Positions 18,469 through 38,389 of a stretch of DNA of 64,000 bases are shown in pieces (the stretch's first letter is position 1; every line of letters starts with the position of its first letter). A model generated the notes under the pieces. The model had not been told where the DNA came from. It did no database searches and saw nothing but the letters and a program-made list of their open reading frames with translations. The stretch spans positions 32,033-96,032 of the forward strand of contig CAITQP010000006.1 in assembly GCA_903894565.1 (NCBI GenBank). Reading direction: 5' to 3'. The translations under genes and the position numbers were made by a program. This DNA is from an uncultured bacterium. GTDB taxonomy: Bacteria > Patescibacteriota > Minisyncoccia > Phycocordibacterales > UBA9973.

Positions 18469-19857
18469 ATGGAATACCGTACAGAAAAAGATTCATTGGG
18501 TGAGGTTCAGGTCCCAGCGACTGCTTACTATGGCGCGCAAACACAGCGTTCGATACAGAATTTTCCGATTGGAGTCGGCACCCACACGATGCCGATTGAA
18601 GTCGTGCATGCAATCGCGCTCGTCAAAAAGGCTGTTGCGCAAGCGAATGGGAGCCTTGGCGTGCTTTCAAACGAGAAGGCAAGCGTGATCACTACTGTGT
18701 GTGATGAAATTCTTGCAGGGAAGCTCGACGGGGAATTTCCGCTTGTCGTTTGGCAAACTGGTTCTGGTACACAGACGAATATGAATGTGAATGAAGTGAT
18801 CGCCAATCGTGCGCAGGTACTCGCTGGGGGAGCGCTCACTGATGCGAAAAAAAGTATTCATCCAAACGACGACGTGAACATGTCGCAATCTTCAAACGAT
18901 GTTTTTCCGACGGCGATGCATATTGCCACGTACACGATGATCGCACGTACGACACTTCCTGCGCTCAAAAAACTTCGTGATACATTCGCACGGAAATCTG
19001 CCCAATATATGAGTGTTGTCAAAATTGGACGAACACATACGATGGATGCGACGCCGGTCACACTTGGCCAGGAATTTGGTGCGTACGTGGAGATGCTTGA
19101 TATGGGTATCACAAGTATTGAGCAGAAACTTCCCGCGCTCGCAAAGCTCGCGCTCGGAGCAACTGCGGTCGGCACAGGACTCAACGCTCCACAGGGCTAT
19201 GCACAAAAGGCAATCGCAAATATTGTGTCGCTTTCTGGTTTTCCATTCAATCAAGCACCGAATCTTTTTTCAGCTATTGCCTCACATGAAGCACTCGTCG
19301 ATATGCATGGTTCGCTCAAGACAGTCGCGACAAGTCTCATGAAGATATCAAATGATATTCGTTTTCTTGCCTCAGGCCCGCGCGCAGGTATTGCTGAAAT
19401 CAGTATTCCAGACAACGAGCCAGGCTCGTCTATTATGCCTGGCAAAGTAAACCCCACGCAGTGCGAAGCACTCGCCATGGTTTCGGCTCAGGTGATGGGT
19501 AACGATGTTGCAGTTAGTATTGGTAACGCGAACGGCCACCTTGAACTCAACGTCTATAAGCCACTCATTATTCGAAACGTACTCGAAAGCGCACGACTAC
19601 TCGGAGAGGCGAGCGCGTCCTTTAGCGACAATTGTGTCGCGGGTATCGAACCGCTTTATGAGAACATCAAGCGCAATCTTGATCGCTCAATTATGCTTGT
19701 TACCGCGCTCACACCGCACATTGGTTACGACAAATCTGCTGAAATTGCAAAGAAAGCTCAGGTAGAAAATACGACTCTTAAAGAATCAGCGCTTCTGCTT
19801 GGCTATGTTACCGAAGCAGATTTTGATGCGTGGGTTCGCCCCGAGCAAATGATTTAA
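18469..19857 (+). CDS. fumC: Fumarate hydratase class II
   Basis: Signature [17 protein letters not shown], identical to the FumC-type SS loop and distinct from aspartase. Confidence 0.85.
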
Positions 19858-27976: not shown

Positions 27977-29296
27977 ATGGAGACATATACCACAGCTCGT
28001 ATTGGAAAAGAGATCATCGCACCAGTTCAAAAAATTAAGTACGTTCTGTATGCTCGTAAATCGACTGAATCAGAAGAACGGCAGGTTCTGTCGATTGATT
28101 CGCAGATCAAGGAAATGCTAGATCTCGCTGAACGAGAGAAACTTGAAATTGTCGAGATCAGGCGAGAATCGCACTCGGCAAAAGAATCGGGTCAGCGACC
28201 TGTATATAAAGAAATTTTGGAGGACGTACGGCGAGGACGGTTTAATGGAATTCTGACATGGGCACCTGATAGATTAAGTAGAAACGCTGGCGACCTCGGA
28301 AGCATTGTCGATTTAATGGATCAGCAACTACTCATGGAAATCCGTACGTACGGACAGCAGTTCAAAAATTCACCAAATGAAAAGTTTCTTCTAATGATTC
28401 TTTGTTCTCAAGCAAAACTGGAGAACGACAACAAAAGTGTAAATGTAAAACGAGGACTGCGAACGAGAGTTGAGATGGGATTATGGCCTGGACCCGCCCC
28501 GACTGGCTATATGAAAGAAAAACGAATGGATAGAAAGTGCGAAACACTTCTTGACCCAGAACGAGCTCCCATCATTAAGAAGATGTTTGAAAAAGTCGCA
28601 TACGAACATTGGAGCGGACGAAAGATATATAACTGGCTCAAGTTTGATCTTAATATGAGAACCGCCGCAGGAAAGAAGCATTTAAGCTTAGGAAATATCT
28701 ACAAGATTTTGGACAATACTTTCTACTATGGCGTTTTTGAATATCCGAGAAAATCAGGCAACTGGTACACGGGAAAGCATGAAGCGATAGTCACCAAGGA
28801 ATTATTTGACCTTGTTCAAGCACAAATAAAAAGCAATGTGCTGAGAGTAGAAAACAAAGAATTCGCATTTACTAAAATGATGACCTGCGGATTATGCGGT
28901 TCGGGTATATCGGCAGACGAGAAATTCAAGAAGCTCAAGAATGGCGGTGTCGCTCGGTACGTCTACTACGGCTGTACTAAGGCGAGAGGAGTTGAGTGCA
29001 AATGCGGATACACCGAGGAAAAAGAAATTTTGAAACAATTTAATGAACTGATAGAAAAAATCAATTTGAACGAGATAGAAGTTAAAGAAAAAATAAAGGC
29101 TGATGTGGAGAAATTCACTAAGCTACAGAAATTCCTTTTGGGAACGAAAGAAAAAGTCAGCACCAACAGCGTTGATGTTCGAGGATATGCAAAATTTGTC
29201 CTGAAAGAAGGAAGCGATATTGAGAAGCGAGAATTGCTTGGTTGTTTGAAGAGTAGAATCTGTTTAGCGAATAAGAAAATCACCTTGAAACAATAA
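27977..29296 (+). CDS. Large serine recombinase (resolvase catalytic domain + recombinase domain + zinc ribbon)
   Basis: YARKSTESEERQVLSIDSQ (catalytic Ser), GILTWAPDRLSRN, and C-terminal CGLCGS...YYGC...C.C; paralogue of 40135–41454. Confidence 0.85.
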   Translation: METYTTARIGKEIIAPVQKIKYVLYARKSTESEERQVLSIDSQIKEMLDLAEREKLEIVEIRRESHSAKESGQRPVYKEILEDVRRGRFNGILTWAPDRLSRNAGDLGSIVDLMDQQLLMEIRTYGQQFKNSPNEKFLLMILCSQAKLENDNKSVNVKRGLRTRVEMGLWPGPAPTGYMKEKRMDRKCETLLDPERAPIIKKMFEKVAYEHWSGRKIYNWLKFDLNMRTAAGKKHLSLGNIYKILDNTFYYGVFEYPRKSGNWYTGKHEAIVTKELFDLVQAQIKSNVLRVENKEFAFTKMMTCGLCGSGISADEKFKKLKNGGVARYVYYGCTKARGVECKCGYTEEKEILKQFNELIEKINLNEIEVKEKIKADVEKFTKLQKFLLGTKEKVSTNSVDVRGYAKFVLKEGSDIEKRELLGCLKSRICLANKKITLKQ

Positions 29297-29300
29297 CGAC

Positions 29301-29975
29301 TTATTTTAATTCAGGTATCATAGTCATGATGTCGTTTGTGGTGCTGTCAGACTTTTTTATCACAGTACTTCTTTCCATATCCACAAAATTCCTTTGACCG
29401 CCAGTCTTGCAGAATGCTCCCCAGTCACATTTATACTTGAAGCAATCGGGAAATATTCCAATGAAACTAAAGTTCGTATTGTTTTCTTCGTTTACTATTA
29501 AATACACGGCACCTGAGTTCGGATTCATCTTTTTTATGTAATCTGAAACCAAAACGTGATCAAAATGCTCTTGTCTTCTGACAAAGCCAACCACCATATT
29601 CCCCGCATAATCTTTATCTTGAAGTTTTCTTTTAATTGATTCTTCTATCTTCTCGCCCTTATCAAACTCGCTGATCTCAAATATCTCAACTGGTTGCTCT
29701 GATAGGCTGTTTCCTTTGCCGTCAGCGCGGGGTATCAAACGCATCGCCAAAACATCAGGCGGATCTTTTTCAGGTATTTGAATCCACCATTCAGCAGGCT
29801 CTGCTTTTGCTCGGCAAATCAAAGCAACCGCACAAACCCATGCTTCCTTGTTTTTATCTATTTTCTTTTGATTTCCCGATTGTACAGTTCTCGCAATTTC
29901 ACTGATTACGTAATTGGGAGAAAACCAGATATTTTTACTATAGGGTCGAATTGCCATAATTTTATTATAAGACAC
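29301..29975 (-). CDS. Hypothetical protein (island 1 cargo, gene 2 of a two-gene operon)
   Basis: Overlaps the upstream gene by 11 nt; weak PD...E-like motif (KDPPDVLAM...EIFEISEFDK); no firm assignment. Confidence 0.4.
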   Translation of the reverse strand: MSYNKIMAIRPYSKNIWFSPNYVISEIARTVQSGNQKKIDKNKEAWVCAVALICRAKAEPAEWWIQIPEKDPPDVLAMRLIPRADGKGNSLSEQPVEIFEISEFDKGEKIEESIKRKLQDKDYAGNMVVGFVRRQEHFDHVLVSDYIKKMNPNSGAVYLIVNEENNTNFSFIGIFPDCFKYKCDWGAFCKTGGQRNFVDMERSTVIKKSDSTTNDIMTMIPELK

Positions 29976-31212
29976 TCTTTGGTTTGCTGGAAAGCCAGTT
30001 AATCAAAGCCCTGAAAACCAGATTTGAAATTGCCCTATGAAAAGCATCTTCGTAAGATTTCTGATACCCCAAAAACCCCATTGGTTCAAAATCTCTAGCA
30101 AATACTTTTTCTCCATGAAGCATGGTAGATCTAATATCGTAGATATAACTTTTCTCTTCTTTGGATAGTTTAGAATATTCCTCATTGGAGTATTTTTCCA
30201 AAAAGTCCTTGAAGCTTTTTCCTAACCTATATTTGGGTTCGCCACATATATCACATTTTTCTATGGATTTGTCAGTGAGAGCTGATCCGCATTTACATTT
30301 TTCTACGTCGTTCATGAGGCATTCAATACTCGTTACTAAACAAACATACGAAACAGAATGTGAAGTTTTCCAGACCTCGCTTGCTGTATACAACCAGTAA
30401 CAAGAAGTAATGAATTTTGGATAGTCGTCAGTATCCAACGTAAAAATAATATCTAGCAATTTACTGGCGTCTTCAACAAGAGTTAATTCATTGCTTTTAC
30501 TTTTTCCAAACTCGAGATCTCTTATGTGTTTTGTTGATGAAAATGAATTGTCCGCTTGGAATTTTTTACCGTAAAAATAACCCATTTGCTTAAACTCGCT
30601 GGTTGTCATTTCTATGTCTTCGTTGTTTATAACGACCCAGTCAAACTGACCGAATCGGGAAGGGCCATAAAACCTTCTTTGCGATAATAAATGTAACAAC
30701 GTGATTAGTTCTCGAGATTTCTTATTTTTTCTAAATGCGTTAACTTGAGCGTTCTTTGACGAAATATATTTGTATTCCAATAAAATTGGGTGATGTCCCC
30801 ACATCTGATTCTCTATTTGAGGTGCCCCAGACGGCATGGGCAGTATCTGAAATAGGTCTTTATATGTAAAATACTCCTCAGCTTTAGAGCCTGTCACGAA
30901 GCAAATATCTCTGCCGACCATTACATCCTGAGCATCAATTAGCTCATCCTGTATTCTTTGTTGAATTTCATTTATATCTTTCTCGCTGAGTTTTGAACCA
31001 TTTTCGATCGACCGAATCTTTCCTTTTGGATCATAAAATATAGTTACAGAAAAATCGTAATCAGTTTCTTCTTTATGATATAGAGATTTGCCCTCATATG
31101 GACCACTACCTCTTCCGAAATATGACAAGAGCACCATTTCTAGTTCGTCTTGCTTTATCTTATTTAAATAAAATTTTTCTTTCAGTTCCATGTTATTTCC
31201 TGTTTCTCCCAT
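29965..31212 (-). CDS. Hypothetical protein with a C-terminal CxC...CxxC zinc-ribbon (island 1 cargo, gene 1 of the operon)
   Basis: KCKCGSALTDKSIEKCDICGEPKY; no recognisable catalytic motif. Confidence 0.45.
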   Translation of the reverse strand: MGETGNNMELKEKFYLNKIKQDELEMVLLSYFGRGSGPYEGKSLYHKEETDYDFSVTIFYDPKGKIRSIENGSKLSEKDINEIQQRIQDELIDAQDVMVGRDICFVTGSKAEEYFTYKDLFQILPMPSGAPQIENQMWGHHPILLEYKYISSKNAQVNAFRKNKKSRELITLLHLLSQRRFYGPSRFGQFDWVVINNEDIEMTTSEFKQMGYFYGKKFQADNSFSSTKHIRDLEFGKSKSNELTLVEDASKLLDIIFTLDTDDYPKFITSCYWLYTASEVWKTSHSVSYVCLVTSIECLMNDVEKCKCGSALTDKSIEKCDICGEPKYRLGKSFKDFLEKYSNEEYSKLSKEEKSYIYDIRSTMLHGEKVFARDFEPMGFLGYQKSYEDAFHRAISNLVFRALINWLSSKPKSVL

Positions 31213-31235
31213 ACCATTCTAACAAAAAGAACGGC

Positions 31236-31263
31236 AATTGCCGTTCTTTTTGTTTATCCATAT
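31236..31263. terminator. Perfect palindromic hairpin AAAAAGAACGGCAATTGCCGTTCTTTTT downstream of tRNA-Ser
   Basis: Seen directly; could act as a bidirectional terminator. Confidence 0.5.
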
Positions 31264-31290
31264 TTGATAGCATCTCGTGCTACCTGTCAA

Positions 31291-31380
31291 TGGCGGAGGC
31301 GGTGAGATTCGAACTCACGGTACCCTTTCGGATACGACAGTTTTCAAGACTGTTGCCTTCAACCACTCAGCCACGCCTCC
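31291..31380 (-). tRNA. tRNA-Ser (anticodon TGA), type II with long variable arm, CCA encoded
   Basis: The reverse complement folds as GGAGGCG/CGCCTCC acceptor, anticodon loop CTTGAAA, variable arm, and T-arm GAGTTCGAATCTC. Confidence 0.85.
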
Positions 31381-31461: not shown

Positions 31462-31878
31462 ATGAAATATCTTGGTATCGATTACGGGACGAAACGGATC
31501 GGGATTGCGGTGAGTGATTCTGATGGAATGCTCGCTCGACCAGTAGCTGTGGTGAAGAATATGACCGGTTTTCTTGATGAAATTGAGGGTATTATCGCTC
31601 GCGAAGGGGTAGAGGGGATCGTTGTTGGAAGCTCGGAAGGCAATAAAGTCCAGCGGGATATTGAGGAGCTCATTGGGCAATTGACGCTCACTACATTTTT
31701 GCCAGTTGAGACTATCACGGAGGCTTTTAGTTCTATGGAGGCACATGGGAAGAAGGGCAAGGAACAGATGGCGGCGCGGGCGACCAAGGCTCCAACCAAG
31801 CCCGCTGACCTCGACGCCCGCGCCGCAGCCGTCATCCTCCAGCGATATCTCGACACCAATAGCAAAAAGAAAAAATAG
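31462..31878 (+). CDS. ruvX: Holliday-junction resolvase-like RuvX/YqgF
   Basis: MKYLGIDYGTKRIGIAVSD N-terminus. Confidence 0.8.
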   Translation: MKYLGIDYGTKRIGIAVSDSDGMLARPVAVVKNMTGFLDEIEGIIAREGVEGIVVGSSEGNKVQRDIEELIGQLTLTTFLPVETITEAFSSMEAHGKKGKEQMAARATKAPTKPADLDARAAAVILQRYLDTNSKKKK

Positions 31879-31890
31879 GTTTTTAGATCT

Positions 31891-33609
31891 ATGGAATCTC
31901 GCGTCTGCAAAAATTGCACAAAAGTATTTGAGATCACTTCAGATGATTTTGGATTTTATACAAAGCTCAATGTACCGGCACCAACGTTCTGTCCTGATTG
32001 TCGAGCACAGCGTCGTCTCGTTTGGCGCAACAACATGTCGCTCTATACACGTCCGTGTGATGCATGTCAGAAGTCTACCGTGTCTGCATATGCACCGACG
32101 ACCTCAATCGTACAATACTGTAACAAGTGTTGGTGGGGTGATTCATGGGACGCAAAAAGTTTTGGAAGAGAATACGATTTTCAAAAACCATTTTTTACTC
32201 AGTTCAAAGAACTCCTTTCCGTCGTTCCGCATATTGCGATGGTGAATGATAATGGTATCGCAAGTATTAATTGCGAGTACACATACGATTGGTGGTTTGC
32301 GAAAAATTGCTACATGGCTTTTTCCGGGTGGCAGGTTGAAAATGTTATGTACAGTTTTTATGTTCTTGCAGGTCGTGACATGATGGATTGCACAAGTATT
32401 ACTGATAAAAATGAATGGCTATACGAATGTATTGATTGTGAGCGATGTTATCAGTTGAAATACTCGCAATTCGCAGTATCCTGTACGGACTCGCAATTTT
32501 TGTATGATTGCCGTGGTTGTAGCGATTGCTTCCTTTCTGCTGGGTTGAGAAATAAAAAATACTGTTTTAAAAATGAACAATATTCGAAGGAGGAGTATGA
32601 ATCAATTCTCGCATCGTATCGCCTTGATACATATTCAGGTGTTGAACGAGCGAGGCAGGAATACCATGCGTTCATACTTTTGTACCCACGCCGTTACGCG
32701 CATATTGTGCACAGCACCAATTCCACGGGAGATCTTTTGACGAACTGTAAAAACACTCATCAAGCATTTAACGTTCAAGGAGCAGAGAACTGCAAGTTTT
32801 ATGACTTTGGGACAATGCCAAAAGATTCCTATGATATTTCAATGACGGGGGAGATGAGTGAATGCTATGAGGGATCGGTAGTAGACCATTCAAGCAGAAA
32901 TGTATTTGGAGTGTTTAGTGTAAAAAGTCAGGATATTCGATACACACAGCATTGTCACTCAGGGAAACATTTGTTTGGATGCGTTGGTTTGCGAAACGCT
33001 GAATATTGTATTTTGAATAAGCAATATACGAAAGAAGAATATGAAGCATTGGTTCCTCGAATTAGTGATCACATGAATGTGATGCCGTATGAAGACAAAA
33101 ACGGATGTTTCTATCCATACGGAGAAAATTACCCGATTGAATTATCTCCATTTGGGTACAACGAAACATTTGCGAATGAGCGCTTTCCATTACCGCGCGA
33201 AGTTGCGGTTGAAAAAGGGTATGCATGGCAAGATGGGCAGCAACGTACAACAGGACGAGAAACGATAGGGAGCGAGGCGATTCCTGAGACTATTGCAGAG
33301 ACGAGTGACACGATAACAAAAGAAATTTTGGCGTGTTGTACCTGCGGAAGGAATTATAAAATCGTTGCACAAGAGTATGTGTTCTATACAAAAATGAATA
33401 TTCCGATTCCGCGGAATTGTTTTCATTGTCGGCATGCGGCGCGCTCCGCGCGCCGCAACCCCTTCCACTTGTGGAAGCGACAGTGCATGTGCGAAGAAAC
33501 AATTCATGGACACGATACAAGCTGTGCGAACGAGTTTGAGACATCATACGCGCCATCTCGCAAGGAAATAGTGTACTGCGAATCGTGCTACCAAAAGCAC
33601 ACCAACTAG
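31891..33609 (+). CDS. Cysteine-rich hypothetical protein with internal repeats and zinc-ribbon-like termini
   Basis: More than 40 Cys. Repeated modules such as GCSDCFLSAGLRNKKYCFKNEQYSKEEYE and GCVGLRNAEYCILNKQYTKEEYE. N- and C-termini show similar CxxC...C motifs with FYTKLN/FYTKMN. Confidence 0.5.
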   Translation: MESRVCKNCTKVFEITSDDFGFYTKLNVPAPTFCPDCRAQRRLVWRNNMSLYTRPCDACQKSTVSAYAPTTSIVQYCNKCWWGDSWDAKSFGREYDFQKPFFTQFKELLSVVPHIAMVNDNGIASINCEYTYDWWFAKNCYMAFSGWQVENVMYSFYVLAGRDMMDCTSITDKNEWLYECIDCERCYQLKYSQFAVSCTDSQFLYDCRGCSDCFLSAGLRNKKYCFKNEQYSKEEYESILASYRLDTYSGVERARQEYHAFILLYPRRYAHIVHSTNSTGDLLTNCKNTHQAFNVQGAENCKFYDFGTMPKDSYDISMTGEMSECYEGSVVDHSSRNVFGVFSVKSQDIRYTQHCHSGKHLFGCVGLRNAEYCILNKQYTKEEYEALVPRISDHMNVMPYEDKNGCFYPYGENYPIELSPFGYNETFANERFPLPREVAVEKGYAWQDGQQRTTGRETIGSEAIPETIAETSDTITKEILACCTCGRNYKIVAQEYVFYTKMNIPIPRNCFHCRHAARSARRNPFHLWKRQCMCEETIHGHDTSCANEFETSYAPSRKEIVYCESCYQKHTN

Positions 33610-33625
33610 GATATACTCCCCATAT

Positions 33626-34051
33626 ATGGAATACGTTTCGTACGATGAATTTAAAAAGATGGATATGCGCGTGGGCACGATCCGTGCTGTCGAGCCAGTT
33701 GAGGGGACTGACAAACTTTTGAAGTGTCAGATTGATTTCGGAGAATTCGAAGCGGTCGAACTGAGCGCTGCTGTCACAAGCGACGAATCTGCCGAAGCAA
33801 GTACTGAAATTGTGGCCGAAGCGCCTGCCCTTGTTCCTAAACTCCGCCAGATTGTCTCAGGTATTCGTGAATTTTTTCCTGAATACGAAAAGCTCGTGGG
33901 CAAACAAGTTCTCTATATTGTAAATCTTGAACCACGTATGATTCGCGGAGTGGAGAGTAGAGGCATGCTCATGGCTGTTGACGGCAAAGACGGTAAGCCC
34001 GTGTTTCTTTCTCCTGAAGTCGAAGTAAACGCTGGATCACACGTTCGTTAA
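33626..34051 (+). CDS. tRNA-binding domain protein (CsaA/Trbp111, EMAP/Myf fold)
   Basis: MDMRVGTIRAVEPVEGTDKLLKCQIDFGE. Confidence 0.7.
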   Translation: MEYVSYDEFKKMDMRVGTIRAVEPVEGTDKLLKCQIDFGEFEAVELSAAVTSDESAEASTEIVAEAPALVPKLRQIVSGIREFFPEYEKLVGKQVLYIVNLEPRMIRGVESRGMLMAVDGKDGKPVFLSPEVEVNAGSHVR

Positions 34052-34648: not shown

Positions 34649-34707
34649 CTTGAATATGCACAGGATTGTTTCTTTCAAAGCTCATTTGTCGTATACTAGT
34701 GTTTAGT

Positions 34708-35802
34708 ATGACTGAAGCACGTCCACGGAATTTTCTTTTTTCTCCGCCATCATTTATTTTGATGCCAGCGGTTGGAATTGATATCTCTGACCGAAGTATA
34801 AAATACGCTCGACTCGTTCCAGCAGGCGAAGGCTACAACCTTGGTGATTTCGGTTCTGTTCCACTTGCTCCAGGTATTGTTGAGGCAGGAAGGATTATTT
34901 CACCTGAGATGCTTGAAGCAGCACTTGGTAATCTCAGACGCGATCACGATATTTCGTTTGTACGTGCGGCACTTCCTGAAGAACAAATGTACTTTTTCCG
35001 CATGACAATTCCTACGGGCCCTCGTGATGTGCTCCGAGATACAATCGAACTTTCACTTGAAGAACACGTACCAATTGCTGGACCAGATGCTGTCTTTGAT
35101 TTTGAAGTAGTGAGTAGTACAGATGCTGATGTTGAGGTCGCTGTTACTGCCGCACCTCGATCAATCGTCGAGAGTTACAGTGATACGTTCTCACGTGCTG
35201 GGTTAACGCTCCTTTCACTTGAGCTTGAGGCTGAAGCAATTGCGCGTACCGTTATTCACAACGAAGATACATTTGCTCACCTTATTGTTGATTTTGGAGA
35301 AACTCGAACTGGTATAGCGATTAGCTACAAGGGCGAAGTGTACTTTACTTCTACGATTGCGATTGGAGGCCGTATGCTCACTGAGACACTTGCGAAGCAT
35401 TTTAGTGTGTCAATGGAAGAAGCAGAAAAAATGAAACACGATTTCGGTTTGGATCGTAATGCTGAACACCAGGATCTTTTTGCTCTTCTGTTGAACAACG
35501 TCGCCGTGCTTCGTGACGAAATCAACAAACACTTTATCTATTGGCACACACACCCAGATGAAAACGGGAACGCTCGACCAACAATCGAAGAGATTGTTTT
35601 GGTTGGCGGGGGATCAAATCTTGCGGGTCTTCCTGACTATCTGTCTGCATCCTTGCGTGTAAAAACATCTGTTGCGAATATTTGGACAAACGTTACCATG
35701 CCTGTCGGTGGAGTACCTGAATTATCTCGAAGTGAATCAGTTGGATACGCGACAGCTGTCGGGCTTTCGCTCCATGAAGCATCAAGTGATCAAATCATAT
35801 GA
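34708..35802 (+). CDS. pilM: Type IV pilus assembly protein PilM (actin-like ATPase fold)
   Basis: VGIDISDRSIKYARL and LIVDFGETRTGIAI motifs. The start is uncertain: 34666, 34708 or 34762. Confidence 0.7.
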   Translation: MTEARPRNFLFSPPSFILMPAVGIDISDRSIKYARLVPAGEGYNLGDFGSVPLAPGIVEAGRIISPEMLEAALGNLRRDHDISFVRAALPEEQMYFFRMTIPTGPRDVLRDTIELSLEEHVPIAGPDAVFDFEVVSSTDADVEVAVTAAPRSIVESYSDTFSRAGLTLLSLELEAEAIARTVIHNEDTFAHLIVDFGETRTGIAISYKGEVYFTSTIAIGGRMLTETLAKHFSVSMEEAEKMKHDFGLDRNAEHQDLFALLLNNVAVLRDEINKHFIYWHTHPDENGNARPTIEEIVLVGGGSNLAGLPDYLSASLRVKTSVANIWTNVTMPVGGVPELSRSESVGYATAVGLSLHEASSDQII

Positions 35803-36347
35803 GTAATCTTCTTCCTCCATCTCAAAAACAGGATATTCTTCGTTTGTATCGTAAGCGACTCGTTTCGATCGCGCTGCTTACTTTTGTTGGGTTGCTCATG
35901 TCTGCCTTTGTTCTCGCAATGCCGTCGTTGTTATATCTAAAATCAAGTGAAATCGTATTGACTGCAAAACGCGATACACTTTCGGGATATGAAACAAGCT
36001 CGATTGCTCGCACGTTGAGTACTGCTGTCGCCGATGTAAATTCTCGCCTTGCAGTATTTCCTGCTACCGAGACAGCCTCACCGCTCATTGCTGATTTTGT
36101 AAATCCCGTCTTGCTCGCAAAATCAAATTCGATTCATCTCGTTGGTTTTTCATACGAAAAGGGAGCAAAACTAAACGAGGCAAAAGTAAAAGTAACCGGA
36201 ACAGCTGATAGCAGAGTAGCGCTCCTTGCGTTTACTGATAGACTCAAGAAGGTAGGAAGTTTTAGCGATGTGAATGTTCCGATTACGAATTTTATTTTGG
36301 ATACAAACGTTCCATTCACAGTGAGTGCAACGGTTTCGCTTCAGTAA
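35799..36347 (+). CDS. pilN: PilN-like pilus assembly protein
   Basis: Begins MSNLLPP (PilN N-terminus) then a single TM helix; follows pilM with a 4-nt overlap. Confidence 0.55.
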   Translation: MSNLLPPSQKQDILRLYRKRLVSIALLTFVGLLMSAFVLAMPSLLYLKSSEIVLTAKRDTLSGYETSSIARTLSTAVADVNSRLAVFPATETASPLIADFVNPVLLAKSNSIHLVGFSYEKGAKLNEAKVKVTGTADSRVALLAFTDRLKKVGSFSDVNVPITNFILDTNVPFTVSATVSLQ

Positions 36348-36358
36348 TAGAGAATTGT

Positions 36359-36952
36359 ATGAATAATCAATCAGAAAAACCAATCAGAGTTACGAATACT
36401 ATTTTTATAGGCACAGTGCTTCTTGCTCTATTCGTCGTTGGCGCGTATGTGTATCTTTTTAATACCATCAAAACAGTTGGAGAACAAAACGCAGCACTTG
36501 AAGTAGAAACGACGACACTCGAGGCGCAAGCATCTCAAGTGGGGGAGTTGAAAAAGAATTTGGCTTTAATTCAAGCACGTCGTCCGGTTCTCGTTTCGTA
36601 TTTTATTGACGCAAGCGACATCGTTCCATTCCTTGAGACAATTGAAGGGTATGGGAAACAAACAAATGTAACAACAAAATTTAACACATTTGTATTCAAA
36701 AAATCACCAGACATGCTTGCTGTTTCTATGGTTGCTGATGGTTCTTTTACCGACCTCTATCACTTTATGGCTTTGCTTGAGGCTGCACCCTACGAGATCG
36801 GTATGACGAATGTGAACGTCCAAGCACAAAAACCAAAAGGACTCGATTCTGCAAAGGGGCAGGCAGTAGCTCAAGCGGTATGGGAGGCGCAGATTTCACT
36901 CGCGGTTACCAGTATTACGGGCGTTCCAAAAGATGCCGTAAAATCAAAATAA
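36359..36952 (+). CDS. pilO: PilO-like pilus assembly protein
   Basis: Single TM helix then a coiled coil; positioned after pilN. Confidence 0.5.
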   Translation: MNNQSEKPIRVTNTIFIGTVLLALFVVGAYVYLFNTIKTVGEQNAALEVETTTLEAQASQVGELKKNLALIQARRPVLVSYFIDASDIVPFLETIEGYGKQTNVTTKFNTFVFKKSPDMLAVSMVADGSFTDLYHFMALLEAAPYEIGMTNVNVQAQKPKGLDSAKGQAVAQAVWEAQISLAVTSITGVPKDAVKSK

Positions 36953-36953
36953 T

Positions 36954-37277
36954 ATGAATGAAATTCGAGCAAAATTACATAACTCAAAAAAATTCCTAGC
37001 GAGCACTTTTATATTTCCAATCAATCCTCGCATGCAGTTTCGTCGTTTGATGATCGGGGGAATGATCTTGTTTATTTTTGTATTTCTCGTGCACATGTAT
37101 TTGTTCTACAAAATTGAATCGCATTCAATTTTTCAGACAACAGATACCTCCCCAATGAGTGTTCCTGTCGTAAATGAAACGAAACTTGCGACCGTACTTT
37201 TGCGTTTTGAGGATAAGGCTGTGATTCGTTCTGCTGCATTGAATCTTGTGCCTGCAGTAGCTGATCCGAGTCAGTAA
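36954..37277 (+). CDS. Small single-pass membrane protein (possibly a PilP-like accessory protein)
   Basis: Position in the pil operon plus one TM helix; no motif. Confidence 0.3.
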   Translation: MNEIRAKLHNSKKFLASTFIFPINPRMQFRRLMIGGMILFIFVFLVHMYLFYKIESHSIFQTTDTSPMSVPVVNETKLATVLLRFEDKAVIRSAALNLVPAVADPSQ

Positions 37278-37282
37278 GAACT

Positions 37283-38389
37283 ATGGAACACTTTTCTTCT
37301 GAAAATAGTACCGCCGAAGAAAAACTTTCTCCAGAGGAAAGAGATTCTCGCCGTAAAGAAAAAAGAAAAAAGGAACTGAAAGAAAAAAAGAAAAAACGAG
37401 AGAAAGAAAAAAAGGAAAAAGAAAAAATTGAAAACCGCGAAAAAGCGCGTGTTGCAGGTGTTCGAAAAGGGAAGGAGAGCTATGCTCGACGTGTCCTTGA
37501 AGAAAAGAACCTCTTTAAGAAGTCGTTTCGAATTGGGTATATGGTTGGGTCGTGGATCGCAAAACGATCAACAGCACGTCTTGATACGAGCACTCTTGCA
37601 CATCCCAATGTTCATGAAGACGAAACGGATTTTACAAATAAAACAGCAGCTTTTGCTCAAGAGCTAAACAAGGACGAACTTCTGGATCGTACTATAAAGG
37701 CGGAGGAGGTAGCCCCAGCAGCGAACGAGATGCAAAAAAAAGAGCAAGTGGCCCCCGCCTTTCAAGAGCGTGATTTTGTAATGGAAGAAATCGATAGAGA
37801 ACTTCGAGATCTTGGTTCAGAGGATCATAATATTCAAACGATGGATCCAGCTGAAGCATTGAATCTTGTTCGAGTAAAAGAGTTGGAGAAGGAGCTAAAA
37901 GGTGAGCAGAAAAAAGAACAGCGGATAACTCCAGATGAGTTGAGCCGTGAACTTGGCATTCTTCGAAAGCTCTGGGGGCAGGCGCTCGACTCGATGGAAG
38001 ATACGAGTAGCGATGTTCGGATCGTTGAGTTACTTACGTTGACTGCTCGCGCAAAATCAAACCCGAAACTTCTCGAAGAATATCTTAAGAATGAAGGCAA
38101 AATGCTTAGTTCTGAAGAACGATTTTTTATTGAGATGTCGATTGAACTTAATTCTTTTAAGACAAAGGCAAAAGAGTTGTTACGTAAGGATCGACAAGGA
38201 GATACACAAAGTCTCTCTCCGGAAGAATTTCATACATTTGTAAATGAAAATACAGTTGATGAAAATGTTCTTGATAGGCTCGCACAAAAAATCGCTTCAG
38301 GCGGACAGATGACACCGGAAGAGATCGCCCTGTTTCAAGGGAGGCATTCTGATATTGAGAAACGACTTAGAGAGATTAAAGAAAAGTAA
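37283..38389 (+). CDS. Hypothetical highly charged protein (Lys/Glu-rich N-terminus), last gene of the pil cluster
   Basis: KEKRKKELKEKKKKREKEKKEKEKIENREK low-complexity stretch, then a helical domain. Confidence 0.4.
   Translation: MEHFSSENSTAEEKLSPEERDSRRKEKRKKELKEKKKKREKEKKEKEKIENREKARVAGVRKGKESYARRVLEEKNLFKKSFRIGYMVGSWIAKRSTARLDTSTLAHPNVHEDETDFTNKTAAFAQELNKDELLDRTIKAEEVAPAANEMQKKEQVAPAFQERDFVMEEIDRELRDLGSEDHNIQTMDPAEALNLVRVKELEKELKGEQKKEQRITPDELSRELGILRKLWGQALDSMEDTSSDVRIVELLTLTARAKSNPKLLEEYLKNEGKMLSSEERFFIEMSIELNSFKTKAKELLRKDRQGDTQSLSPEEFHTFVNENTVDENVLDRLAQKIASGGQMTPEEIALFQGRHSDIEKRLREIKEK

What the first reader, a model, noticed from the sequence alone, without database searches (positions are those of the whole stretch)
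31891..33609. Cysteine-rich 572-aa protein with internal repeats and mirrored zinc-ribbon termini
The protein has more than 40 cysteines arranged in recurring modules (...GC.DCFLSAGLRNKKYCFKNEQYSKEEYE...; ...GCVGLRNAEYCILNKQYTKEEYE...). The N- and C-terminal segments share CxxC...FYTK(L/M)N(V/I)P motifs. There is no signal peptide or TM helix. It sits between ruvX and a tRNA-binding protein. I cannot place it in a known family. It could be a multi-zinc-binding nucleic-acid-binding or redox protein specific to this lineage.
Basis: seen in the sequence. Interest (0 to 1): 0.55.

Follow-up and report, generated by a model that had tools for sequence, protein, structure and literature searches.

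The report
Patescibacterial four-zinc-finger beta-solenoid protein family
This gene encodes a real, highly conserved but uncharacterised protein of ultra-small (Patescibacteria/CPR) bacteria, with two zinc-finger pairs flanking a duplicated beta-solenoid core; in related genomes its paralogs form long tandem arrays bracketed by two orphan conjugation-type motor ATPases whose role is currently unknown.

Summary
The ORF (31891-33609, +, 572 aa) is real and lies between ruvX and a tRNA_bind gene. It has 36 cysteines, not more than 40.

Both repeat claims hold. The N- and C-terminal two-finger modules are homologous (hhalign 99.8%), as are two ~120-aa core blocks (99.9%). The fingers are treble-clef types (PF13451-like and PF23477-like). 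Their Cys quartets are kept or lost all-or-none across 403 relatives, so they are genuine metal sites.

The core has a 12-residue periodicity with Cys at every third position. These Cys are freely replaced by S/V/L/I/A and show no pair coupling, so they are packing residues, not Fe-S or redox ligands. AF2 (pLDDT 86.7) finds no significant PDB or viral fold match, and no Pfam, NCBIfam, PHROG or PADLOC family covers the core.

The family is large (1,881 50%-identity clusters at E<=1e-30) and almost entirely patescibacterial. Elsewhere it forms operon-like arrays of 2-10 paralogs bracketed by two soluble TraD/VirD4-like ATPases, an association confirmed reciprocally (73% vs 17%, p=4e-6). The window holds one copy and no such ATPase.

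Function is inferred only: probably a zinc-finger adaptor working with these ATPases.

The parts
31891..33609 (+). Complete ORF, 572 aa, orthogroup A of the family
   Evidence: ORF; identical P0001, >7000 homologous 90% clusters; orthogroup A, 93 members, mean 58% identity
31891..32040 (+). N-terminal zinc finger type a (res 1-50; Cys 6, 9, 34, 37; Arg-rich helix CRAQRRLVWRN), PF13451 zf_Tbcl-like
   Evidence: invariant Cys; CCCC in 380/403; PF13451 at 4-43 in the 68%-identical P0004, 30.7 bits > GA 24; hairpin + helix; net +3
32041..32148 (+). N-terminal zinc finger type b (res 51-86; Cys 56, 59, 77, 80; CxxC-x17-CxxC), PF23477 zf_Tbcl_2-like
   Evidence: CCCC 293, C--- 67, ---- 42: all-or-none; PF23477 at 59-91 in P0128; homologous to the ATPase finger, hhalign 96.7%
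32149..32232 (+). Helical connector (res 87-114)
   Evidence: H88-91, H101-111; pLDDT 95-98
32233..32586 (+). Beta-solenoid block 1 (res 115-232): ~9 turns of 12 residues, Cys at every third position, ending in the cap GLRNKKYCFKNEQYSKEEYE
   Evidence: lag-12 periodicity, 12-mer layout; homologous to block 2, E 4e-35; pLDDT only ~60 here; Cys substitutable
32587..32706 (+). Two helices after block 1 (res 233-272)
   Evidence: H233-242, H248-262
32707..33030 (+). Beta-solenoid block 2 (res 273-380), ending in the cap GLRNAEYCILNKQYTKEEYE
   Evidence: strands recurring every 12 residues from 287 to 371, pLDDT 83-98
33031..33084 (+). Capping helix after block 2 (res 381-398)
   Evidence: H381-397, pLDDT 98
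33085..33315 (+). Acidic conserved linker domain (res 399-475; motif YGE.YP.ELSPFGYNET.A...PL; W446-Q447), no known family
   Evidence: near-invariant G411 P415 S419 Y423 N424 A428 W446; net -8; no match
33316..33468 (+). C-terminal zinc finger type a (res 476-526; Cys 482, 485, 510, 513; Arg-rich helix), duplicate of the N-terminal finger a
   Evidence: N1 vs C1, E 4e-22; CCCC 356, C--- 32; PF13451 at ~468-507 in P0140/P0188; net +7, pI 9.7
33469..33606 (+). C-terminal zinc finger type b (res 527-572; Cys 532, 545, 563, 566, plus Cys 534), PF23477-like
   Evidence: PF23477 at 544-570, 16.3 bits, below GA 27; N2 vs C2, E 1.6e-11; CCCC 393/403; ATPase finger, 92.8%
31462..31878 (+). Upstream gene ruvX, 12 nt before the ORF (probably the same transcription unit; context only)
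33626..34051 (+). Downstream tRNA_bind (CsaA/Trbp111-type) gene, 16 nt after the stop codon (context only)

Best explanation
SHOWN: The gene encodes a soluble 572-aa protein. It is the most conserved orthogroup of a very large, essentially Patescibacteria-restricted family. Its architecture runs in this order: a zinc-finger pair (type a, PF13451-like, followed by an Arg-rich helix; type b, PF23477-like); two homologous capped beta-solenoid blocks of 12-residue turns; an acidic conserved domain; then a second copy of the same finger pair. The four Cys4 sites behave as obligate metal sites. The many core cysteines are interchangeable interior packing residues, not Fe-S, disulfide or redox centres. 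In other genomes, 2-10 paralogs sit in tight same-strand arrays. These arrays are bracketed by a ~490-aa and a ~600-1000-aa soluble TraD/VirD4/HerA-type P-loop ATPase. The longer ATPase ends in a finger homologous to the family's type-b finger.

INFERRED: The protein is a rigid bivalent adaptor. The basic type-a fingers at its two ends grip a polyanionic ligand, most likely DNA or RNA. The type-b fingers engage the same partner or surface as the ATPase's own finger. The paralog-specific solenoid surfaces provide specificity. The family therefore works together with these orphan coupling-protein-like motors in nucleic-acid (or protein) handling. In this window the gene is a stand-alone copy, probably co-transcribed with ruvX and a tRNA-binding protein, and any ATPase partner would be encoded elsewhere in the genome.

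The confidence given (0.35) is for the inferred mechanism. The structural and genomic description marked SHOWN is held at about 0.85.
For: Architecture and duplications. Metal sites: finger Cys are 89-98% conserved, and quartets are lost as units (56/59/77/80: CCCC 293, C--- 67, ---- 42). Finger identity. Core Cys are non-essential. Soluble. Family size and taxonomy. Arrays: (up to 10 copies in 21.7 kb; gaps of 5-60 bp). ATPase link, forward: an ATPase lies within 500 bp in 11/14 loci with four or more copies versus 2/32 single-copy loci. ATPase link, reverse: 22/30 loci seeded on close orthologues of the short ATPase carry a family gene versus 6/36 for distant homologues, Fisher p 4e-6. Shared finger: hhalign 96.7%/92.8% to type b, 9-11% to type a. 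ATPase identity. Charge: finger a is +3 and +7, the core is acidic. Conservation is uniform across all domains in orthologues (0.59-0.68), as expected for a protein with extensive interaction surfaces. Literature: orphan VirD4-like T4CPs are abundant in Patescibacteria and unexplained (PMC12102498).
Against: No binding, metal-content or interaction data exist. Nucleic-acid binding rests only on charge and on the general behaviour of such fingers, and PF13451/PF23477 have no demonstrated function. The window's 64 kb contains no such ATPase and no paralog. Single-copy orthogroup-A genes are usually not next to an ATPase (2/32), so this copy may act independently. About a third of the loci place the gene between scpAB and mraY-ftsW-murG, which may just be inherited synteny. 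Solenoid block 1 is modelled at only pLDDT ~60. Model coordinates could not be inspected, so the solenoid geometry is inferred from periodicity, DSSP strings and weak Foldseek hits.
Confidence: 0.35

Rival explanations
1. The family members are translocated substrates (effector-like cargo) of the coupling-protein-like ATPases. They would be exported or injected into host cells during the epibiotic lifestyle, and the paralog arrays would be an effector repertoire.
For: The arrays are bracketed by VirD4/TraD-type ATPases. T4CPs classically recognise secretion substrates (established knowledge; PMC12102498). Cys- and Zn-rich folds are robust outside cells. There is no Sec signal, so any export would be non-classical. 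Rare members occur in MAGs labelled Oligoflexia, a class that includes predators.
Against: The ATPases lack the N-terminal membrane anchor of true T4CPs (max KD 1.0-1.35) and no virB4 or channel genes appear among the recurrent neighbours. Orthologues are ~60% identical across lineages with uniform constraint, unlike fast-evolving effectors. Four tightly folded zinc sites would hinder unfolding-dependent T4SS transit.
Confidence: 0.15
2. The paralogs are subunits of a hetero-oligomeric intracellular structure (a scaffold or cytoskeleton-like body), with the ATPases acting as assembly or remodelling factors.
For: Several ancient paralogs sit in a partly conserved order within one operon. Conservation is uniform over the whole surface. 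Beta-solenoids are common building blocks of filaments (established knowledge).
Against: Both solenoid blocks end in strongly conserved capping motifs and helices, which argues against open-ended stacking. Copy number varies from 1 to 10 between genomes, which is unlike a fixed-stoichiometry complex. The window genome region has a single copy.
Confidence: 0.15
3. The arrays plus ATPases form a conflict or defence system, with the paralogs as diversified sensors and HerA/FtsK-type ATPases as effectors.
For: The ATPases give weak PADLOC hits to mad8 and HerA (E 5e-11 to 3e-7). In L005 and L011, methylase, GmrSD/HNH and PemK genes lie between the two ATPase types.
Against: The query has no PADLOC hit. 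The family is slowly evolving, chromosomal, and absent from phage, IMG/VR and plasmid collections. Orthogroup A often lies in a housekeeping context.
Confidence: 0.1
4. It is a redox, Fe-S or metal-storage protein that uses the CxxCxxC-rich core.
For: There are 17 core cysteines at every third residue, and the CxxCxxCxxC turn at 207-216 is 81-93% conserved. CutA1 and a P-type ATPase are neighbours in a few loci.
Against: Core Cys occupancy is 15-96%, with substitution by Ser/Val/Leu/Ile/Ala. i/i+6 pairs are slightly anti-correlated (phi -0.12). The 207/210/213/216 quartet loses single members in all combinations, unlike the fingers. There is no ferredoxin, radical-SAM or SPASM match by sequence or fold.
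Confidence: 0.05
5. It is an enzyme whose active site lies on the beta-helix, by analogy with left-handed beta-helix acyltransferases or gamma-carbonic anhydrases.
For: All top Foldseek PDB hits are LpxD, GlmU, PglD and gamma-CA. Several polar residues are near-invariant family-wide (N127, E150, D166, D315, N376, K377).
Against: Those hits are non-significant (E >= 0.09, prob <= 0.13, TM <= 0.21). The periodicity is 12, not 18. There is no Hexapep Pfam hit. The conserved polar residues recur in register in both blocks, as ladder residues would.
Confidence: 0.05

Closest known systems
Pfam PF13451 (zf_Tbcl) and PF23477 (zf_Tbcl_2) / NCBIfam TIGR04272 (CxxC-x17-CxxC) 'probable treble clef' zinc fingers
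   Same: The four terminal units have the hairpin-knuckle plus helix-start CxxC...CxxC arrangement and hit these models (28/72 and 26/72 diverse members; P0004 is above the gathering score). BFVD 'zinc-ribbon domain' proteins superpose at rmsd 0.5-0.8 A over 36-43 residues.
   Different: These models describe ~40-residue domains of unknown function. They cover only about 180 of 572 residues, and the query itself scores below the cut-offs. The a-b ... a-b arrangement around a solenoid core is not part of any described family.
Type IV coupling proteins (VirD4/TraD/TrwB) and their orphan homologues in Patescibacteria (PMC12102498)
   Same: The ATPases flanking the family's arrays carry the TrwB_AAD_bind, TraG-D_C and DUF87 domains. 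Patescibacteria are reported to hold about two VirD4-like genes per genome, mostly far from virB4. That figure is compatible with the short/long pair seen here.
   Different: The ATPases here have no membrane anchor, score far below every NCBIfam equivalog cut-off, carry a zinc finger and long disordered tails, and are associated with this family rather than with relaxases or T4SS channels. No such ATPase is in the window.
Tenebrio molitor antifreeze protein type of 12-residue, Cys-rich beta-helix (resemblance recalled from knowledge, not tested by superposition)
   Same: A 12-residue turn with inward-facing small residues at every third position, many of them cysteines.
   Different: TmAFP is secreted and about 84 residues long, with obligatory i/i+6 disulfides and a Thr-Cys-Thr ice-binding face. 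Here there is no signal peptide, no i/i+6 Cys coupling, and two ~110-residue capped blocks. TmAFP was not among the Foldseek hits.
Left-handed beta-helix (hexapeptide-repeat) proteins: LpxD, GlmU, gamma-carbonic anhydrase
   Same: They are the only class of fold returned for the core by Foldseek, which supports a solenoid topology.
   Different: The matches are non-significant (E 0.09-2, TM <= 0.21). Those proteins have an 18-residue turn against 12 here, and there is no Hexapep sequence signature.
LIM-domain cysteine-rich proteins (CRP1/CRP2)
   Same: They are the best PDB sequence-profile hit, to the last finger.
   Different: E 0.076-0.25 over ~40 residues, so this is only generic zinc-finger similarity.

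Membership tests
PF13451 zf_Tbcl (treble-clef finger), for fingers 1-50 and 476-526 | HMM score at or above the gathering cut-off (24 bits) | tested here: inconclusive
   The query gives no reported hit. The 68%-identical orthologue P0004 scores 30.7 bits at 4-43, and 26/72 diverse members hit at E<=0.01, at both the N- and C-terminal positions.
PF13451 / PF23477 treble-clef fingers | Four zinc ligands from a beta-hairpin knuckle and the start of a helix, conserved as a unit | tested here: met
   In the AF2 DSSP, E2-5/E12-15 are followed by H35-43, E52-55/E62-65 by H78-82, and likewise at the C-terminus. Cys quartets are all-or-none in 403 members. Zinc itself was not measured.
PF23477 zf_Tbcl_2 / TIGR04272, for fingers 51-86 and 527-572 | HMM score at or above the cut-off (27 bits / 36 bits) | tested here: not met
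   The query scores 16.3 bits (PF23477) and 13.7 bits (TIGR04272) at 544-570. Homology is nevertheless supported by hhalign to the ATPase fingers, which score 46-53 bits: 96.7% and 92.8%.
4Fe-4S ferredoxin / radical-SAM / SPASM | Conserved cluster-binding Cys motif and a family HMM match | tested here: not met
   No Pfam, NCBIfam or PDB hit for the query or for 72 members. Core Cys are variably occupied and uncoupled.
Hexapeptide-repeat left-handed beta-helix | 18-residue turn of three hexapeptides, a Hexapep HMM hit, and a significant fold match | tested here: not met
   The periodicity is 12. There is no Hexapep hit. Foldseek gives E>=0.09 and TM<=0.21.
TmAFP-type disulfide-bonded 12-residue beta-helix | 12-residue repeat with inward residues at every third position | tested here: met
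   Lag-12 autocorrelation is the best in both blocks, and Cys fall at positions 3/6/9/12 of the 12-mers.
TmAFP-type disulfide-bonded 12-residue beta-helix | Obligatory intra-turn i/i+6 disulfide pairs, and secretion | tested here: not met
   Separation-6 Cys pairs have mean phi -0.12. There is no signal peptide.
Type IV coupling protein system (applies to the array-flanking ATPases, not to the query) | VirD4/TraD nucleotide-binding domain | tested here: met
   TrwB_AAD_bind E 1e-14, with TraG-D_C and DUF87.
Type IV coupling protein system (applies to the array-flanking ATPases, not to the query) | N-terminal transmembrane anchor, and linkage to a T4SS channel or relaxase | tested here: not met
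   No hydrophobic segment. NCBIfam equivalog scores are far below the cut-offs. No T4SS components appear among the recurrent neighbours.
Known anti-phage defence systems (PADLOC) | HMM match of the query to a defence-system component | tested here: not met
   The query has zero hits.

The most novel reading that the evidence does not exclude
The family and the two soluble VirD4/TraD-like ATPases would together form a previously undescribed machinery, widespread in Patescibacteria and carried in multiple copies. Operons of up to ten paralogous zinc-finger beta-solenoid adaptors or substrates would be driven by a pair of hexameric motors. The machinery would be used for nucleic-acid scavenging or handling, or for host interaction. 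This would explain the thousands of 'orphan' coupling-protein genes reported in these genomes. The window's gene would be the universal core subunit of that machinery.
Probability: 0.3. Interest if true: 0.8.

Novelty: categorically new. Interest (0 to 1): 0.62.

Why it matters
Patescibacteria/CPR make up a large share of bacterial diversity, have tiny genomes, and are mostly uncultured. Most of their lineage-specific proteins are blank 'hypotheticals'.

This family is among the most conserved of them: about 60% identity across candidate phyla, and thousands of clusters. It can occupy about 17 kb of a genome of roughly 1 Mb. It has an architecture and core fold with no counterpart in the PDB.

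Its reciprocal linkage to one subfamily of soluble VirD4/TraD-like ATPases gives a concrete, testable context for an open observation in the literature. Patescibacteria carry about two coupling-protein homologues per genome that are not part of their type IV secretion system (PMC12102498).

The work also settles a practical point. The abundant core cysteines should not be annotated as Fe-S or redox sites. Only the four terminal Cys4 fingers behave as metal sites.

Tried and rejected
- **Family scans of the query.** Pfam, NCBIfam, PHROGs and PADLOC gave nothing above cut-off.
- **PDB sequence searches.** A single-sequence search and a 72-sequence profile found only LIM-finger noise.
- **First AF2 run.** With 37 close orthologues the core was unusable (pLDDT 67). 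It was replaced by a run with 72 diverse members (pLDDT 86.7).
- **Foldseek.** Searches against PDB and BFVD gave no hit at E<=1e-3.
- **Conserved gene context as a functional clue.** The ruvX/tRNA_bind context of the window is not conserved elsewhere. The scpAB...mraY-ftsW-murG context seen in about a third of loci may be plain synteny.
- **Disulfide or metal-pair hypothesis for the core Cys.** Rejected by the covariation test.
- **Phage, plasmid or mobile-element origin.** No homologues in INPHARED, IMG/VR or PLSDB.
- **Literature.** Searches on PF13451, treble clef, cysteine-rich, zinc ribbon and Parcubacteria found no description of the family.
- **Failed or uninformative steps.** The search for related loci with the diverse alignment A2 failed for lack of conserved peptides and was rerun with A1. 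The organism name for the exact protein could not be retrieved.
Full report
**1. The observation**

The ORF is exactly where stated: 31891-33609, + strand, ATG start, 572 aa. It has 36 cysteines (6.3%), not more than 40.

CxxC pairs lie at 6/9, 34/37, 56/59 and 77/80 in the N-terminal part, and at 482/485, 510/513 and 563/566 in the C-terminal part. CxxCxxC motifs lie at 180-186 and 207-213. FYTK occurs at residues 22 and 498, and GLRN at 218 and 366.

No 19-residue window exceeds a Kyte-Doolittle mean of 1.15, and the N-terminus is hydrophilic. So there is no TM helix or signal peptide.

RuvX (PF03652, E 1.6e-24) ends 12 nt upstream. A tRNA_bind protein (PF01588, E 3e-23) starts 16 nt downstream, followed by a DedA/VTT protein and pilM. 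No intergenic promoter-like or terminator-like site separates these genes, and consensus hits in the region are no more frequent than in shuffles. A ruvX-X-tRNA_bind transcription unit is therefore likely.

**2. The repeats are real duplications**

I ran profile-profile alignment (hhalign) on slices of a 72-sequence family alignment:
- N-terminal residues 2-83 match C-terminal residues 478-569 at 99.8% probability, E 7e-28.
- The first fingers match each other (E 4e-22), and so do the second fingers (E 1.6e-11).
- The first and second fingers do not match each other (4-14%).

The termini are therefore direct a-b ... a-b duplicates, not mirror images.

Residues 123-243 match 273-391 at 99.9%, E 4e-35.

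Within each block, profile autocorrelation peaks at lag 12, with harmonics at 3, 6, 9 and 24. The flanking control regions show nothing comparable. Laid out in 12-mers, both blocks show in-register ladders (KN / EN / KD at the start of successive turns). Family-wide, cysteines sit at positions 3, 6, 9 and 12 of each turn.

**3. Structure**

| AF2 run | Alignment | Mean pLDDT | pTM |
|---|---|---|---|
| First | 37 close orthologues | 67 | 0.63 |
| Second | 72 diverse representatives (36-51% identity) | 86.7 | 0.88 |

The first run left the core unresolved. In the second run the termini, block 2 and residues 381-572 are mostly above 85, while block 1 is only about 60.

The DSSP string shows a beta-hairpin followed by a helix at each CxxC...CxxC unit, which is treble-clef geometry. 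In block 2, strands recur every 12 residues from 287 to 371. Helices follow each block, at 233-262 and 381-397.

Foldseek found no match at E<=1e-3 in the PDB or BFVD. The weak PDB hits (E 0.09-2, TM <= 0.21) are all beta-helix proteins: LpxD, GlmU, PglD and gamma-carbonic anhydrases. That is consistent with a solenoid topology but does not establish homology. The viral hits with probability 0.92-1.0 are 36-65-residue 'zinc-ribbon domain' matches to the fingers.

I could not access coordinates. Handedness and interior geometry therefore remain inferred.

**4. Which cysteines matter**

I aligned 465 family sequences and reduced them to 403 at below 80% identity.

Finger cysteines are 89-98% conserved, except the second N-terminal finger at 73%. 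When they are lost, they are lost together:

| Cys quartet | Pattern counts among 403 members |
|---|---|
| 6/9/34/37 | CCCC 380 |
| 56/59/77/80 | CCCC 293, C--- 67, ---- 42 |
| 482/485/510/513 | CCCC 356, C--- 32 |
| 532/545/563/566 | CCCC 393 |

This is the expected signature of four-ligand metal sites.

Core cysteines behave differently:
- Occupancy ranges from 15% to 96%.
- Replacements are Ser, Val, Leu, Ile, Thr and Ala.
- Cys pairs six residues apart are slightly anti-correlated (mean phi -0.12), while pairs twelve apart are weakly positive (+0.09).
- The best-conserved turn (207/210/213/216) loses single members in every combination.

The core cysteines are therefore small interior residues of the solenoid. 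They are not disulfide partners or Fe-S/redox ligands.

**5. Family, taxonomy and known domains**

No Pfam, NCBIfam, PHROG, PADLOC or PDB-sequence family covers the protein.

Only the fingers are recognised:
- Type a matches PF13451 zf_Tbcl. P0004 scores 30.7 bits against a cut-off of 24, and hits fall at both the N- and C-terminal positions.
- Type b matches PF23477 zf_Tbcl_2 / TIGR04272, below threshold in the family.

The family is large. More than 7,000 90%-identity clusters were scored in the word-indexed search, and the top 120 are 59-82% identical over the full length. An exhaustive profile search found 4,397 50%-identity clusters at E<=1e-3 and 1,881 at E<=1e-30. The best 150 are mostly full-length, about 520-610 aa.

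Named members come from Nomura-, Azam-, Harrison-, Staskawicz-, Sung-, Jorgensen- and Falkow-bacteria, Paceibacterota, Minisyncoccia and Peribacteraceae. All of these are Patescibacteria. The exceptions are one MAG labelled Oligoflexia (two contigs) and one labelled Deltaproteobacteria. In the Oligoflexia contig a tandem pair sits beside HDOD, TlyA-like and EamA genes. I could not decide between true presence and mis-binning.

There are no homologues in phage genomes, IMG/VR contigs or plasmids. I found no paper describing the family. Meheust et al. 2019 only note that Parcubacteria-enriched families are mostly hypothetical proteins (PMC6744442).

**6. Genomic behaviour of the family**

The window's ruvX/tRNA_bind context is not conserved.

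Two patterns recur in 85 loci from other genomes:

(a) In about 30 loci the gene sits between scpA-scpB (with or without a VanY-like gene on the opposite strand) and mraY-ftsW-murG-gltX (Pfam labels). This may simply be inherited synteny.

(b) The family forms same-strand arrays of diverged paralogs (32-41% identity). Fifty of 85 loci have two or more copies. There are up to 10 copies in 21.7 kb (L009), 8 in L013, and 7 each in L007 and L073, with gaps of 5-60 bp.

At a 50% identity threshold the window's gene falls in orthogroup A, which has 93 members at a mean of 58% identity. Order within the arrays is partly conserved: group E follows the short ATPase, and groups B or F precede the long one.

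The 64-kb window contains only this one copy.

**7. The ATPase association**

The most frequent non-family neighbour is a P-loop ATPase with DUF87, TrwB_AAD_bind, TraG-D_C and T4SS-DNA_transf domains. Its NCBIfam hits to TraD, VirD4 and CedD fall far below the equivalog cut-offs.

It comes in two forms:
- a ~490-aa form;
- a ~600-1000-aa form, which carries a strong zf_Tbcl_2 finger (E 3e-12 to 4e-14) and a long low-complexity or coiled tail.

Neither form has a membrane anchor. The typical cassette is short ATPase, then 5-8 family genes, then long ATPase.

The ATPase finger is homologous to the family's type-b fingers (96.7% and 92.8%) and not to type a (9-11%).

The association scales with array size:

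| Family copies in locus | Loci with an ATPase within 500 bp |
|---|---|
| 4 or more | 11 of 14 |
| 3 | 6 of 16 |
| 2 | 5 of 24 |
| 1 | 2 of 32 |

Those loci were seeded on the family, so I ran the reverse experiment. I collected 80 metagenome loci seeded on the short ATPase and counted those with at least 2 kb of flank:
- 22 of 30 carrying an ATPase at least 60% identical to the short form also carry a family gene, 21 of them within 1 kb.
- Only 6 of 36 carrying a more distant homologue do so.
- Fisher p = 4e-6.

The short ATPase is itself extremely conserved, at 74-97% identity in 14 of 15 comparisons.

A 2025 survey reported 5,713 VirD4-like T4CP homologues in 2,918 Patescibacteria genomes. 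Only 148 are near virB4, and their role was left open (PMC12102498). The cassettes described here give at least some of these orphans a context. No such ATPase is present in the window.

**8. Interpretation**

Shown:
- the domain architecture;
- four obligate Cys4 sites;
- a duplicated, capped 12-residue solenoid;
- solubility;
- lineage restriction and strong, uniform purifying selection (0.59-0.68 identity in every domain among orthologues);
- paralog arrays;
- specific, reciprocal linkage to one subfamily of soluble coupling-protein-like ATPases that shares the type-b finger.

Inferred: the basic type-a fingers (net +3 and +7, with conserved Arg-rich helices) bind a polyanion such as DNA or RNA at both ends of a rigid acidic scaffold. 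The family would then act as adaptors, or as substrates, for the ATPases.

I rate this mechanism at about 0.35. Rivals are listed with their evidence in the rival-explanations section: translocated effector-like cargo, a hetero-oligomeric structure, a conflict system, redox or metal storage, and a beta-helix enzyme. The redox/Fe-S reading is the one the data most clearly disfavour.

**9. Novelty and verdict**

The sequences already exist in databases as 'hypothetical protein', so this is not a new sequence. I found no described family, fold or system that covers the core, the overall architecture, or the cassette with the two ATPases. By that measure it lies outside every known kind.

The window itself shows only a single stand-alone gene with no experimental handle, and the function remains inferred. 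Interest is therefore moderate to high (0.62) rather than very high.

Noticed in passing
window 27977-31380: A large serine recombinase (27977-29296, Resolvase+Recombinase+Zn_ribbon_recom) and two opposite-strand genes with no Pfam match (29301-29975, 29965-31212) abut tRNA-Ser(tga) at 31291-31380, immediately upstream of ruvX. GC dips to 0.395-0.40 here. This is probably an integrated element at the tRNA.
   Followed up: partly
window 45375-47808: A 710-aa protein has an AEP-TOTE primase domain (PF22548, E 6e-80) fused to a ResIII/DEAD helicase, which is a TOTE conflict-system component. It lies next to tRNA-Arg and tRNA-Val.
   Followed up: no
window 40114-41454: A second large serine recombinase (Resolvase + Recombinase domains) lies about 10 kb from the first.
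   Followed up: no
window 18469-19857: A class II fumarase (Lyase_1 E 6.5e-103 plus FumaraseC_C) is present. This is a somewhat unexpected metabolic enzyme for a reduced patescibacterial genome.
   Followed up: no
window 34666-38389: pilM is followed by three small genes with no Pfam match (182, 197 and 107 aa; possibly pilN/O-like) and a 368-aa Lys/Glu-rich low-complexity protein.
   Followed up: no
L086 1-8082 (GCA_028352935.1, labelled Oligoflexia): A tandem pair of family genes (541 and 553 aa) lies beside HDOD, S4/FtsJ (TlyA-like) and EamA genes. A second contig of the same MAG (P0357) and a MAG labelled Deltaproteobacteria (P0294) also carry members. This is either a rare occurrence outside Patescibacteria or mis-binning.
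   Followed up: partly
L005 7777-13725; L011 11768-18926: Between the long and short ATPase types lie EcoRI-type methylase fragments, a GmrSD_N/HNH protein and a PemK toxin. This is a small defence islet inserted in the cassette.
   Followed up: no
L007-L081 (short ATPase genes, e.g. L008 3797-5269): The ~490-aa soluble TraD/VirD4-like ATPase is extraordinarily conserved between different patescibacterial MAGs, at 74-97% identity in 14 of 15 comparisons. This is higher than for the family proteins themselves.
   Followed up: partly
L003 5610-5951, L005 1277-1582, L009 7000-9907, L011 5268-9965: CutA1, DnaK (HSP70) and a P-type (E1-E2) ATPase recur next to or inside some arrays, in 8-9 loci each. 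It was not determined whether this is shared synteny or a functional link.
   Followed up: no
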